Assembly: GCA_021841005.1 (NCBI GenBank) | Contig: JAKBVZ010000022.1 | Location: 1 to 64,000 of the forward strand | Direction of reading: 5' to 3' | Length of the DNA: 64,000 nucleotides | From: Actinomycetes bacterium | GTDB lineage: Bacteria; Actinomycetota; Acidimicrobiia; Acidimicrobiales; JAMCPL01 | Shown here: positions 36,001 to 42,000 of the stretch, in pieces | Position numbering within the stretch: the first letter of the stretch is position 1 | Layout of the letters: the number at the start of each line of letters is the position of its first letter | Program-made: the position numbers

Positions 36001-39000
36001 ACTTCCACGGATGCCGAACTGGCCGGCTTCAACGTCTCTTCGGTTACCGGTGGAATAGATGCGCTGGGAGATGTGGTGATCCAGCTCATCTCCGATGGGA
36101 TCAAGGTGTCCGGCAAAGGAGTATCCACCGATGTGGTGGAGGCATCCGCCAGGGCTTACCTGGCTGCGGTCAACCGGCTCATCCGTGCCAAGGAGCGAAA
36201 TCGTGAGCAGCTCGTGCGCCCAGGGGATACAGGGCCGTAGACGCTAGCTTACTACGATGACTTCACCCATCATGTAACCGAGATGGTGCATTCCCCATCC
36301 GCACGGCATGATACAGTGCCAGTAATACACTCCTGCCTTGGGAGCGACAAACTGGAACGTAGTCACATGAGGGCTCGAATGTGACCCTGGATGGATCATC
36401 ACGTTGAGATGCAATTGAGCAGAGGTGAAACTGTGCGTATCCGTGCTGAAGTTGGTCACGGTTACGTCTACATGCTCTCCGGTTTTCACAGTGAATCTTG
36501 CAGGTACGTAGGCGTCCTGCAGTATGCCACCATGGGGAGCTGGCTTGCCGTAAAGGGGAGGGGGATTGATGTCCAGCATCACCTGTGCGATACCACTGTG
36601 GGACGAGATCATGTCTGCCGCCGGTCTGCCGCCGGCGGTGGCCTGGGTCGCGTGATTGGCAAGGGGGCCCTGCAGTAGGCCAGTACCTACAAATACGGAT
36701 ATTCCGACTATGGCGGCAGATGCAGCTAGGATGGATAATATACCGTTGCGCGATAGTCTATGGTAGGTTGCATGCGGCGACGTTGTGCCCGAATGTCCAC
36801 CAGTATAAGATGCCCGCGATGATGCATAACTTGTACCGATATCGGCGCCGGTGCTTCCGCCGGCAGTTACAGGACCACCAGCAAACGATGGTGTAACGGA
36901 TCCCAATTCTTGCATGCCGTTGCCCAGTCCGGACAGCTGGGATGCCATCTCCCAGTCCAGCCCAGCTTCGCGAGCGCTCCATGCTTCATCAGGGTAGAAC
37001 CCTTCCTGGCTCCAGTACCCGGCCTCCCAGGCTCGGAAGCCGGCCATCCGCCACCGTCTTGCCATGTACGGATCGAATCCGGCGGCGGCCCATCCTTCAG
37101 CATGGTATCGCCAGTTGGGTAATCTTTCACCTTCCATATTCAACCACCTCGATTCCCGAGGAAGGATTTGAGCTCAGCGCACGAGGGTCTGCAGGGCGTA
37201 TGCTATCGCAGCGACTATTGCCACCGATATGCCCAGTTCGATAAGAGTGACCAGGACGGTGACAGCAGTAAGCAGTGCCGTTTTCGCGGCCGGAGTAGGG
37301 GGGATCTCGATCGGGCCTCCTTCCGTTGCGGTGCTGTTGCCGACATCCTCCCTGGTAAGGGTTGCTACGCCGGCTGGCGCCTCACGGGCAAACTGTGCTT
37401 CGTCCACGCGAGCCGTTTGACTCGCAATCTCTGTGTCTCGTATTACCATGTGTATACCTCCTTTAATCTGTATTCCATGGGTTCCAGATGTTTATGCATG
37501 CTTGGCATCTCAACGTGCATATCTATGATGCGTGGCCTTGAGCAGGAGATTTACCCGCACTGCCGTTCCGAAGAGCACCAGCCACAAAAGGCCGAGAACG
37601 GTCAGTAATATACCGGCTGCCCATTTACCAAGCGTGCCGTCAGGCCTCTGCGATTGTACGGTTCCCTTGAACGGTAATGATGCGGCAGTGGCGGAATAGG
37701 TTGTGGAGGAGGATGCCAGGGTATTTCCCGATGCACTGTCGATCTGGGCAACGAGGGGCTGCTTCCCGGTCCATGTGGGGCTGTAGGTCAGGGTGGCTAC
37801 ACCGTTTGAGCCGGTAGCGGCCTTGCCGAGGAGCAGCAACGGAGCCGTATCGAATTGCCCGGTGAATTGTTTGGCGCCTACGTAGAAATCCACGGCTATA
37901 CCGGCGAGTTGGTTTGCAGCGGCAGAAGCCGGTTTGCCTTGCGGTGATACCGTTGCGGTCAGGATCACATCACGTGCACTGGTGGGAGCCTGGGCGGCAT
38001 GCAATGTCAACGTGTAGGGTGGAGTCTTCGAGGTGGCCTGTGATGCGTATGCCGTGCCGGAAGTCATTCCGGTAAGGATCAGGGCAACGACAGCGCAGGA
38101 TCCTGCGGTCAGGGACACTCTCGCCACCAGGTTCCGGAGCGTACGGTTAGACATTTGCATGTTTTCTCTCCTTTCTGTTGTCGGAAGTGTTGTCGCCAGC
38201 TGCTGCCATTACGCCAAGAGTGCTCAGGTCCTCCTCCAGCCCTTCCGCTTCAGCAGCCATTTCCTCCATATCCGCCACCGGCAGGATCGGGAAGAACTTG
38301 AATACGACGAGCAACAGCAACGGTATTGCAGCAGTTGCCGCCAGGGTGATCGTTATCGGAATCCAGGTGAAGTGAAAGGTGCCCCAGTTGGCGCTTGCAA
38401 CATTCAGGGGCGACTTCACCAGTGGCTCGGTAGCCGGCGGTATGACGATAACCAGTCTCTTCACCCACATCGCCAGAAGGACTATCACCGATGCCGTCGC
38501 TACGCCCTTTACATTACGCGTACGGCGGAACGCGAGGATCACCAGAGGGAGTAACCCTGCACCTACTACGAAGAACCAGAATGGTATCCAATAGCGCCCA
38601 AGTATTGTCTGGTAAACCCAGCTGGCATTGCCGATTGTGCCAGAGTAGCCGTCTACGAGATATTCTGTGAATGTAAGGTACAGGTAGGCGGCACCCAACG
38701 CGATCAGAATAAATCCCATACGCACGAAGTGCTTCTCGGTTATGTAACGTTCCAGGCGGTACCCTTTTCTGAATGCAGCGGCTACAACTATGACCAGCGC
38801 TACGCCACTATAGAGTGCGCCTACCACAAACAGTACCGGGAAGATGGTCTCCAGGTATCCTGCACGGCTCGAGGACGAGAATGCGAAGCTCAGCACCGAG
38901 TGAACTGAAACTGCCATGGGAATGATCATGATGGATATGAGTCCCAATGCGCCATGAAGTACCCTGCGCTGAGGGATGCTACCTGTCCAGTTGCCACCAA

Positions 39001-42000
39001 TTATGGTGTACAGCTTCTTGTAGGTACGCGTCTTTAGATTGTCCGGACCTGCTGAGAGTCGCTCCAAGGTGATCTTGAGGTCGGGTATAAGAGGGAGGTA
39101 GAAGAATACGACCGTGGCCAGCAGGTAGGTGCTCACTGCGAAGAAGTCCCATAGGATCGGGGACGACAGGTTCCAGTATGGAGGCCAGACCAGCTCCCAT
39201 ATCCTCGGTGATTCTCCGAGGTGAGGAACGATAAACATCATCCCTATCGGCAACGTCACTAGCGCAGTGGCTTCGGCAATCCGGGTGAGCGGTGCGCGCC
39301 AGCGTGCCTTGGTGAGCCGCAGTACAGCGGAGACCACTGCCCCTCCGTAGGTGACTCCGATGAATGCCACAAGGTCTGCTTCGTAAATCGCCCAGAACGC
39401 TTGGTTGTTGTATCCTGCTGAACCCAATCCATCGCGAAGCTGCATGACCCATGCAACGATGCCCGCTAGCACGACGACACCGAGCGTGATCACCGCTGTC
39501 CACCACCACTTGCCAGTTTCCAGCACCGGGCGCATGGCGGCTTCGCGTATGTCTTCTCTTGGTGGCACGGGATCTACGCCATCGTAGGCGGTTCCTATGG
39601 ACTTTTCGAGAGTCCTGCTGGTCATTGTGGTGCTTGTTCCAGTTTCCATTGTGTCAACCTGCTCCCTCGTCATTTTCCAGGTCCTGATCGTGACCGAGTA
39701 TGTAGTAGACCCTTGGGTGCGTGCCGTAGGATTCCTTGAACTTCACTGCATCGTTGGCAGCCAGGAACTCCGACAGTTTTACGACCTGGCCGCTGGCGTT
39801 TACTGCGACATCGGTGGTCAGATCTCCCATGTACAGAGCGTCCATCGGGCAGTTGGATACGCATTCAGGGATCTTCCCCATTGGAAGCATTGCGGCACAG
39901 AATATGCACTTGCCGACAGTTCCCTCGACTTGCGGAACCGGCCACTCGGGTTCCTGTGGGAATGGCTGCCTGGGGGCAGATTTGGCCGGTCCCCAGTTGA
40001 AGTACCTGGCTTGGTAAGGGCAGGCGTTCATGCAGATGCGGGTACCGATGCAGCGGCTCTGGTTGACAAGCACCAAGCCTTCATCGGTTCGGAAATTCGC
40101 CTTTACCGGGCAGACCTGTACGCAAGGCGGATCTTCGCACATCATGCAAGGTCGCGGCATGTGATAGGTATTGCCTGAAGCATTGGTCATGGTGAACACG
40201 TGTATCCAGGTCTGGTCCTTGTGCAGGTAGTGGGCCTCCTGGCACGCTGCGGTACATACCTTGCAGCCGTTGCAGTAGCGAAGATCGATGACCATGCACC
40301 ACTGGTGCGCAGGCTTGCTCGATGCGCCCGTTGCTTGCGTGGTGGCCGCCGTGGTTACGGCACCTGCCTTGTGGCCGCTTGCCGCCTCCAGCACGCCGGT
40401 CCCTGCAAGCGCTCCGGCAACCCCTATTGCTCCAAGGCGTTCCAGGAAATGCCGTCTGCTCAGGCCTGCATCTTCGCAGCTTGGTGGTTCTTCGGCATCC
40501 GTCGCTGGTGGTCTTGTGGCTATTTCCACTGGCTGCCGCCTGCTACCGGTCATCTGTCATGCCTCATAATGTGTGTCTCCTTTAGTGATGTGATCATGGA
40601 TTATTGGACCGTGAGTGATCCCGTCATGTATCCCGGGGTGACCATTGGTCCGCCCATTCCCATCGCTCCGGTTCCACATGGTGCTACGCATTGCCACGTG
40701 TAAGTGCCCGCCTTGGTAACATGGAAGGTGAAGGTGACTACCGTTGGCTCGCTCTCGCCTCCGGGACCTGCAGCGGAGGGGGCGGGCGGTATCGGGATAT
40801 TCATCTGCAATAGGGGTACCGTGAATGTGTGGGATATGTCCGTGATTGGTATGGATGTCACCGGTTTACCGTTAACAGTTTCCTTGCCATTCTCTACTTT
40901 GCCGCCGAGAGAACCAGCGGTAAGCGGCGCAGTTCCGTTGTCATAGTTGTAGATGGTCAGTACCACCGTCGTGTCTTTGGGAATGGTGAGATTGGCAGGG
41001 GAGAACTTCGGCCATCCCGGGCGACCTATCATACCTCCTGTGAGGATATTGGTGGATATATGGATAGCTGGTGGTTTGGCGACGTTCGCGGAGGTGCTGC
41101 TGCATGCTGACGCAGCTAGTGCTGTTACCGCCAGCAGCAATAGCGCCAAGTATCGCGCCCTGCGTACAGTCCCGGTCGTATTCAACCTATCTGGCCTGAT
41201 TCTCTTCATCGTTCCTTCCATTCGGTCAATCAGAGATATGAGTGTTCCTTCAATACTGGGCAACAAGCCTACGTGTGAGCGTGGATCGTATCTTGCACTC
41301 ACATGAGACCAAGTGCTCATAGATGTAAGTATGGAGGATTTCCGCGCGAAATGAAACGGTGAAATGCCCTACGTATGGATGGTGGTTACCCGTAATTGAT
41401 TGGAGTAGCGGTACAGGTAAACACGTAGGTACTGGTAAGTGCATACGTAAGTAGTTGGACAGCCGTAGTTTACGGCTGGTTGAGGGGAAGGGAGTATGCA
41501 GACTGGTCGCGTTGGATGCATCAAAGGAAAGCCGTTAGGCTGGTGGCATGGAAATAGGAACCGGCATGGAACGCGGCGGAGCGCCTGGTGACGTACTCTG
41601 GACGCCATCACGTGAATACATGGATGCATCACGCCTTTCCGGATTCATGCAGTGGCTGGGAACAGAGAGAGGCTTGCACTTTGACGGTTATGATCAGCTC
41701 TGGGAGTGGTCCGTCACTGATCTGGATGGGTTCTGGTCGTCGGTATGGTCGTATTTCGGTGTGCGATCGCAGGCTCCCTTCGAGGCTGCGCTAGCCGACT
41801 CTCGAATGCCTGGGGCGTCCTGGTTCCCTGGCGCCCGGCTGAACTACGCCGAGCACGCACTCCAGCCACTTGACGGTAAAGCGCCTGATGCACCCGCGGT
41901 CGTGTCGCTCAGCCAGACGAGAGAACGCGTCGAGCTCAGTATGGCCGACCTGCGAGGTGAGGTTGCCAAGGCGGTGGTGGGCCTGAAGGCACTGGGTGTG

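What a model noticed while it worked through the whole genome (the two positions that open the first line are those of the whole stretch)
36244..41209. Cytochrome-free alternative-complex-III-like operon with copper proteins
Operon g00620-g00615 encodes an ActC-like NrfD subunit and a Tat-exported 4Fe-4S subunit flanked by two cupredoxins, with no c-type cytochrome and no molybdoenzyme subunit. It is a candidate quinol:cupredoxin oxidoreductase conserved in acidophile-type Acidimicrobiia, including Ferrimicrobium acidiphilum.
Evidence so far: The only PDB sequence hits of g00618 are four ACIII ActC chains (E 5e-46 to 2e-31, call 124). No CXXCH motif occurs in the operon. Of 69 close loci (NrfD >=50% identity), 67 have the FeS gene, 61 at least one cupredoxin, 56 the g00617 partner and 0 a Mo subunit; 7 have a stray CXXCH in any frame. 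The g00620 model (pLDDT 84) matches cupredoxins, AcoP, rusticyanin and CuA. His97, Cys144-x3-Cys148, Met159 and Met165 are invariant in 40 homologs. The subunit is found in 11 of 121 order genomes.
(Added by a program. Inside this text positions count along the whole contig: contig position 1 is position 1 of the stretch shown here. "Call 12" and the like, gene names such as g00115 and contig names such as C1 are that model's own, and its searches are not shown. The text may have been shortened before it was handed on; [...] marks where a part breaks off. The agent that wrote the report below was given it as the finding of a first reader that could run no searches.)

Follow-up and report, generated by a model that had tools for sequence, protein, structure and literature searches.

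The report
Haem-free quinol-to-copper respiratory module
This six-gene cluster from a mine-drainage actinobacterium joins a quinone-binding membrane protein and an iron-sulfur protein to two predicted copper proteins instead of cytochromes, and it likely forms an undescribed respiratory branch that passes electrons from quinol to copper carriers outside the membrane.

Summary
The operon is real and conserved: cupredoxin, Tat FeS protein, ActC-like NrfD, Ig-fold partner, small membrane protein, second cupredoxin; no CXXCH, no molybdenum subunit. Of 54 close loci, 53 have the FeS gene, 48 a cupredoxin, 0 a Mo subunit.

It is not a stripped-down ACIII. The FeS protein does not group with ActB (AU p=0.0001), and its [3Fe-4S] motif arose separately. 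Its nearest relatives are modules that use monohaem cytochrome c instead.

Three contexts support quinol-to-copper flow. Relatives sit inside nosZ operons. Others carry classic blue-copper proteins in the same slot. The same H-CxxPC-M-x5-M cupredoxin precedes coxB of a second haem-copper oxidase in 15 of 15 loci examined.

This genome lacks that oxidase and nosZ and keeps bcc-aa3, so its sink is open (CtaC or ferric iron). The family is not confined to acidophiles. The Ferrimicrobium claim is unverified, and no link to iron oxidation is shown.

Not found in ten literature searches. This scan has reported the module before on other genomes. Activity, direction and copper site are untested.

The parts
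40601..41209 (-). g00620: long-loop cupredoxin, probable lipoprotein (Cys36); predicted metal ligands H127, C174, C178, M189, M195
   Evidence: His and both Cys align with the CuA ligands of the genome's CtaC (E 0.025, weak)
39654..40553 (-). g00619: Tat-exported iron-sulfur protein, three [4Fe-4S] motifs plus one predicted [3Fe-4S] motif (second Cys replaced by Thr171)
   Evidence: R33 and R34 invariant in 49 of 49
38147..39649 (-). g00618: NrfD-family subunit with 10 predicted membrane helices, ActC-like; quinol-site H143, S163, D168 and gate R398 kept (an alternative start at 39673 overlaps the FeS stop)
37510..38160 (-). g00617: Ig-like beta-sandwich between N- and C-terminal helices, no conserved metal ligands; fused to NrfD in many relatives
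37174..37449 (-). g00616: 91-aa single-helix membrane protein, found only in the same-genus loci L001-L003
   Evidence: dN/dS 0.18-0.30
36244..37143 (-). g00615: Trp-rich N-terminal domain, one membrane helix, C-terminal short-loop cupredoxin (H237, C277, C281, M285, M291)
   Evidence: matches the NosZ CuA domain at E 2e-7
41348..41400 (-). conserved upstream non-coding block, candidate regulator site
   Evidence: shared with L001-L003 only, of 33 loci tested

Best explanation
The operon likely encodes a haem-free menaquinol:cupredoxin oxidoreductase that would feed a copper-containing terminal enzyme outside the membrane. Shown: the genes, their motifs and folds, and their gene neighbours in relatives. 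Inferred: NrfD oxidises menaquinol at the outer-face His143/Asp168 site and releases the protons outside. Electrons pass through the [3Fe-4S] and [4Fe-4S] clusters of the Tat-exported subunit to the tethered cupredoxins g00620 and g00615, which take the place of the cytochrome c used by sister modules. The cupredoxins then reduce a CuA centre. In relatives that is a second haem-copper oxidase or N2O reductase; in this genome the only CuA enzyme found is CtaC of the aa3 oxidase. The branch would bypass the bcc complex at a lower proton yield. Pumping is uncertain. The copper site is predicted to be CuA-like, with the second His replaced by Met.
For: Quinol-site H143, S163 and D168 are kept in 55 of 55 clade members, and gate R398 in 54 of 54 (numbering counted by hand and PMC8076601 Table 2). 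Cupredoxin genes are in 48 of 54 close loci, up to four per locus. The three exceptions with long flanks (L032, L099, L101) lie in genomes that have the gene elsewhere. The sister clade has the same two-component system, FeS, NrfD and Ig genes, with monohaem cytochrome c or an EB_dh protein in 14 of 24 loci and the CxxPC cupredoxin in 0 of 24. NrfDs nested in the copper clade lie in clade II nos operons in 5 of 62 metagenome loci. Five other loci carry classic type 1 blue-copper proteins upstream of the FeS gene. The g00620 family lies directly before a CuA-bearing coxB and coxA in 15 of 15 loci examined from 11 genomes, with all five ligands invariant. A [3Fe-4S] motif arose three times on the FeS tree; in ACIII this cluster is the +140 mV acceptor from menaquinol (PMC7439408, passages).
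Against: G000 (94% complete) has one Cox1, no nosZ, no multicopper oxidase and no bd oxidase. Its CuA enzyme belongs to bcc-aa3, where CtaC is normally fed by QcrC (recalled). 0 of 32 Acidimicrobiales genomes searched (the 31 with the operon plus G359) have nosZ, only six of them were shown to have the cupredoxin-linked oxidase, and 31 of 32 keep qcrB. Eight metagenome loci carry cupredoxin-fold partners without the Cys ligand, and several have no copper gene upstream. H97, D253 and E394 of the ActC proton path are replaced by Tyr, Ala and Lys. No copper binding or activity is measured.
Confidence: 0.55

Rival explanations
1. Same complex and direction, but in acid habitats the sink is soluble ferric iron: surface cupredoxins act as a multihaem-free Fe(III) reductase.
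For: This genome has no dedicated copper sink. Near-identical DNA is in mine tailings and mine drainage runs. Cultured acidophilic Actinobacteria reduce Fe(III) (PMC8790237, table passage), and F. acidiphilum lacks multihaem cytochromes (PMC8350767, discussion). Tandem arrays of three or four cupredoxins in 22 of 54 loci would suit a wire. Quinol to Fe(III) is strongly downhill (inference).
Against: No cultured iron reducer was shown here to hold the operon. Relatives outside Acidimicrobiia use the module with nosZ. Only 31 of 401 order genomes have it.
Confidence: 0.15
2. Reverse direction: Fe(II) reduces the cupredoxins, and the module drives electrons uphill to menaquinone, as bc1 does behind rusticyanin.
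For: The cupredoxin-coxB-coxA layout in relatives resembles the cup-coxB order of the rus operon (bioRxiv 2020.03.01.968255, passage) and the sulfocyanin-oxidase pairing of Ferroplasma (PMC13741234, passages). QrcD and HybB show that NrfD subunits can reduce quinone (PMC8076601).
Against: A gap of about 0.5 V or more would need several protons per quinone through one subunit with no Q-cycle (inference). The proton path has lost ActC residues. G000 lacks the cupredoxin-linked oxidase. The nos context requires quinol oxidation.
Confidence: 0.12
3. The cupredoxins are Cu(I) chaperones or buffers. The FeS-NrfD core supplies reducing power for copper loading, CuA assembly or detoxification rather than bulk respiration.
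For: A His, two Cys and two Met suit Cu(I). CupA and an uncharacterised Bacillus cupredoxin rank high (Z 11.1, rmsd 1.6, 88 aligned; CupA Z 9.0, rmsd 2.3, 89 aligned). A gene before coxB or inside a nos operon could serve assembly. A DoxX-like membrane gene accompanies 34 of 54 loci.
Against: Classic type 1 electron carriers and monohaem cytochrome c fill the same slot in relatives. No Cu exporter or sensor family recurs in the close loci. Most operon loci have no CuA client nearby.
Confidence: 0.12
4. The FeS-NrfD pair is the membrane anchor of a molybdoenzyme encoded elsewhere.
For: The best PDB sequence hits of the FeS subunit are ArrB and PsrB. G000 has a Tat-exported TtrA-like enzyme.
Against: That enzyme has its own FeS, membrane and chaperone-sized genes at C8:34569-41251. 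0 of 54 close loci have a Mo gene. The Mo gene near L199 and L269 looks like NarG (N-terminus recognised from memory).
Confidence: 0.03

Closest known systems
Alternative complex III (ActABCDEF; 6F0K, 6BTM, 6LOD, 8K9E), including the menaquinol:auracyanin form of Chloroflexus and Roseiflexus
   Same: ActC-like 10-helix NrfD with His/Ser/Asp quinol site and Arg gate; FeS protein with a [3Fe-4S] motif; a cupredoxin as likely acceptor.
   Different: No ActA, ActE, ActD, ActF or Mo-like ActB domain; FeS subunit not ActB-derived; cupredoxins are in the operon and tethered; H97, D253 and E394 equivalents changed.
FeS-NrfD-Ig-monohaem cytochrome c (plus EB_dh protein) module of Chloroflexota and other Actinomycetota (loci L039-L055; uncharacterised as far as searched)
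   Same: Gene order, Ig partner, divergent NarL-type two-component system, sister FeS subunits.
   Different: Haem acceptors, Asp at the quinol-site His position (23 of 23), four [4Fe-4S] motifs.
CISM enzymes PsrABC and TtrABC, and the DsrOP and QrcCD cores
   Same: NrfC/NrfD electron conduit between the quinone pool and outer-face partners.
   Different: No Mo subunit, multihaem cytochrome or DsrMK.
CuA domain of CoxB and NosZ; AcoP, rusticyanin and sulfocyanin
   Same: Cupredoxin fold; His and Cys-x3-Cys align with CuA; relatives lie before coxB like AcoP.
   Different: The C-terminal His of CuA and of type 1 sites is not conserved; two Met (M-x5-M) and an invariant Pro are.

Membership tests
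Alternative complex III | ActC-type NrfD subunit with quinol site | tested here: met
   H143, S163, D168 kept; D253 equivalent is Ala
Alternative complex III | Pentahaem ActA and monohaem ActE | tested here: not met
   no CXXCH in six frames; no cytochrome c homologue in 54 loci
Alternative complex III | ActB: Mo-like domain with FeS domain | tested here: not met
   299-aa stand-alone FeS protein; grouping with ActB rejected, AU p=0.0001 and 0.011
Alternative complex III | [3Fe-4S] cluster next to the quinol site | tested here: met
   motif only; Thr for Cys in 40 of 54 loci, Cys kept in 13; arose separately
Alternative complex III | ActD and second NrfD paralogue ActF | tested here: not met
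   no ActD Pfam hit among the six genes while true ACIII loci give one; g00618 has no second tblastn hit in the genome
Alternative complex III | NrfD descends from within or beside ActC | tested here: inconclusive
   ActC, cytochrome and copper clades unresolved; AU p=0.46 and 0.30
Alternative complex III | Quinol:acceptor oxidoreductase activity | not testable with these tools
   needs enzyme assay
CISM molybdoenzymes | Mo-bisPGD catalytic subunit in the operon | tested here: not met
   0 of 54 loci
CuA centre | His plus Cys-x3-Cys | tested here: met
CuA centre | Cys-x3-His-x2-Met after the second Cys | tested here: not met
   M-x5-M instead; His not conserved in either loop type
Type 1 blue copper site | His, single Cys, His, Met | tested here: not met
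   two conserved Cys, no conserved second His
CuA centre | Binuclear mixed-valence spectrum | not testable with these tools
   needs UV-vis and EPR

The most novel reading that the evidence does not exclude
Actinomycetota and some other Gram-positive-type lineages run a cytochrome-c-free respiratory wire built on a new copper centre (His, Cys-x2-Pro-Cys, Met-x5-Met). One paralogue takes electrons from an NrfD/FeS quinol dehydrogenase and another gives them to a second haem-copper oxidase. In acidophiles these surface proteins are the missing carriers that exchange electrons with soluble iron.
Probability: 0.2. Interest if true: 0.9.

Novelty: new variant of a known kind. Interest (0 to 1): 0.66.

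Why it matters
It would add a copper-only branch to the NrfD family, whose surveyed members all use haem c, molybdenum or nickel-iron partners (PMC8076601 Table 1), and a cupredoxin ligand set that fits neither type 1 nor CuA. How acidophilic Actinobacteria move electrons between iron and their membrane is stated as unknown for F. acidiphilum (PMC8350767). The two small soluble domains make that question directly testable. The nos-linked copies suggest an unrecognised electron supply for N2O reductase in Actinomycetota.

Tried and rejected
Complex prediction of the FeS and cupredoxin domains was not available, so no binding result exists. No RNA holder was listed, which says nothing about expression. 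A metagenome scan with a Sulfobacillus homologue found no confirmed locus. The Ferrimicrobium claim could not be tested: searches gave no such name, and the genome paper (PMC4417700, whole text) does not mention the genes. The promoter and terminator scan was at chance level. The Atlas gave no hit for the g00615 N-terminal domain. The g00617 fold search gave only generic beta-sandwich matches, none an ACIII subunit. 'Replaces bcc' was rejected. 'Reduced ACIII' was rejected for the FeS subunit. Acid adaptation of the His-to-Met site is not supported, because relatives of named non-acidophile groups share the NrfD family and linked loci carry the same motif. The BLAST-based type 1 count was inflated by an over-long query, so I use the motif count. 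One mapped position (W82) was mis-indexed and is not used. A mixture-model tree did not finish; the trees used are FastTree or quick IQ-TREE.
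Full report
Observation. The window is contig C12 of a 2.45-Mb, 94%-complete genome. Six genes run on the minus strand from 41209 to 36244: cupredoxin g00620, FeS g00619, NrfD g00618, g00617, g00616 and cupredoxin g00615. All six are under purifying selection against L001 (dN/dS 0.03-0.26). Near-identical DNA is held by runs labelled mine tailings, mine drainage or sediment (13 rows at half the words or more, four of them possible sources). No CXXCH occurs in any frame. The four PDB hits of g00618 below E 0.001 are all ActC.

Anatomy. g00618 has 10 predicted membrane helices. Mapping R. marinus ActC residues (PMC8076601 Table 2; counted by hand) shows H139, S164, D169, R119, E122, D191 and H247 kept in 55 of 55 clade members and R395 in 54 of 54. 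H97 is Tyr, D253 is Ala and E394 is Lys throughout. The quinol site looks intact; the proposed pumping path is altered, and there is no ActF. g00619 has an invariant twin-arginine motif and 15 cluster cysteines; the third motif has Thr for its second Cys, as in ActB. g00617 folds as an Ig-like sandwich between two helices (pLDDT 81), has no conserved metal ligand and is fused to NrfD in many relatives. g00620 folds as a cupredoxin (pLDDT 85.5). Both cupredoxin types share His, Cys-x2-Pro-Cys and Met-x5-Met. His and both Cys align with the CuA ligands of the genome's CtaC, though weakly. The second His of CuA and of type 1 sites is not conserved. The site is therefore neither; a CuA-like centre with His replaced by Met is my inference.

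Distribution. A full-length NrfD at 51% identity or more is in 31 of 401 order genomes; 42 match at E 1e-10. In 54 de-duplicated close loci: FeS 53, cupredoxin 48 (one to four copies), Ig partner 47, divergent two-component system 38, DoxX-like gene 34, Mo subunit 0, cytochrome c homologue 0. Three of the six loci without a cupredoxin have under 1.3 kb upstream; the other three come from genomes that hold the gene elsewhere. The family extends beyond acidophiles by source names. Ferrimicrobium was not seen in any listing.

Descent. NrfD trees give three groups: copper-linked, cytochrome-linked and true ActC, the last identified by ActB, ActD and multihaem neighbours. Their order is unresolved (58 chosen rows). 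The FeS tree (49 rows; L184, L194, L199, L207 and L208 dropped because the motif search failed) joins the copper and cytochrome clades and excludes ActB (AU p=0.0001 for the Thr subclade plus ActB, 0.011 for the whole clade). Loss of the Cys occurs three times on that tree (Thr in ActB, Thr here, Ser or Val in other Actinomycetota). The module is a sister system that converged on ACIII's exit cluster, not a reduced ACIII. The cytochrome clade has the same regulator-FeS-NrfD-Ig order followed by monohaem cytochrome c or an EB_dh protein in 14 of 24 loci.

Direction and partners. Among 62 de-duplicated metagenome loci of the fused NrfD-Ig type, 20 carry the CxxPC cupredoxin and 5 lie in clade II nos operons; in L220 nosZ directly precedes the FeS gene. 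Four of the five share one layout and may be close kin. Five loci carry classic type 1 di-domain proteins. Against this, eight loci carry cupredoxin-fold partners lacking the Cys, and several have no copper gene upstream. A profile of g00620 hit 63 of 401 order genomes. I fetched 15 loci of the weaker score tier from 11 genomes, 10 of them chosen because they lay beside a second Cox1; all 15 read cupredoxin-coxB(CuA)-coxA, with all five ligands and Asp90 invariant, and they form one clade inside the g00620 type. About 25 further genomes in that tier were not checked. The same protein family thus stands beside a quinol-side enzyme and beside an oxidase, as an electron carrier would. Five of the 11 genomes had no NrfD hit, so the pairing is not obligatory.

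This genome. It has qcrCAB, ctaE, ctaC with CuA and ctaD, a separate Ttr-like operon with its own membrane gene, and no nosZ, multicopper oxidase, bd oxidase or second Cox1. Of 32 genomes searched, 0 have nosZ, 2 a multicopper oxidase, 32 Cox1 and 31 qcrB. The module is an extra branch, and its sink here is open: CtaC or ferric iron.

Mechanism. I commit to menaquinol oxidation, FeS transfer and cupredoxin reduction, ending at a CuA enzyme (0.55). Ferric iron as sink (0.15), uphill transfer from Fe(II) (0.12), copper handling (0.12) and an orphan Mo anchor (0.03) are the rivals. All steps after gene content and fold are inferred.

Literature. Ten searches listed no paper whose title or abstract start describes an NrfD/FeS module with cupredoxins. 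I read parts 1-4 of 7 of PMC8076601, the whole of PMC4417700, part 1 of the discussion and passages of PMC8350767, and passages only of PMC7439408, PMC13741234, PMC10654088, PMC8790237, PMC4378227 and bioRxiv 2020.03.01.968255. No supplements were read. Subscription surveys of ACIII gene clusters (Yanyushin 2005, Refojo 2010 and 2013; recalled) were not seen and may list partial clusters. ACIII reducing auracyanin is the known precedent, but through a haem wire (PMC7439408).

Earlier scan notes describe this module on other genomes many times. They are not independent support. Two gave leads that I tested: the nos context and the separate origin of the ACIII-like motif. I found no note on the oxidase-linked paralogue in Acidimicrobiia in one look-up.

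Verdict. Real, conserved and apparently undescribed; a new variant of the NrfD/FeS kind with a possibly new copper site. Interest 0.66.

Noticed in passing
L282-L296 (G275, G250, G142, G392, G180, G239, G352, G036, G145, G198, G069): A g00620-family cupredoxin directly precedes coxB-coxA of a second haem-copper oxidase; the five copies scanned have no Pfam hit. A candidate Fe(II)-to-oxidase carrier, worth its own study.
   Followed up: partly
L220, L222, L229, L250, L264: FeS-NrfD-Ig module inside clade II nos operons of the fused Actinomycetota type.
   Followed up: partly
L199, L200, L204, L206, L207, L212, L216, L269: Cupredoxin-fold partners whose Cys and second His are replaced (Asp and Met-rich loop); the FeS motif in these loci has Glu in place of Cys.
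   Followed up: no
L177, L178, L179, L181: Ig partner fused to a cytochrome c-like domain that lacks both haem-binding Cys but keeps His and Met.
   Followed up: no
window 40601-41209 and 36244-37143 versus L001 and L002: Cupredoxin genes show far higher synonymous divergence than NrfD (g00620 dS 1.57 against about 0.3 in L001), suggesting they are swapped by recombination.
   Followed up: no
window 36934-37143 (-): Conserved Trp-rich repeat domain at the N-terminus of g00615 (dN/dS 0.05), probably cytoplasmic; no Atlas hit.
   Followed up: partly
G000:C8:34569-41251: Tat-exported TtrA-like molybdoenzyme operon with its own FeS and membrane genes.
   Followed up: partly
G000:C31:200552-201703 and C28:87646-88812: Two copies of the DoxX-like membrane protein that accompanies the module in 34 of 54 loci; one lies next to a gene with a ResA-like domain.
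   Followed up: partly
L297 (G289), L298 (G249): Cupredoxin pairs without FeS or NrfD genes, one still beside the two-component system: possible operon remnants.
   Followed up: no
window 44628-44998 (+): RNase P class A RNA. The operon lies between a convergent leuA-like gene and a divergent acetoacetyl-CoA synthetase-like gene.
   Followed up: no
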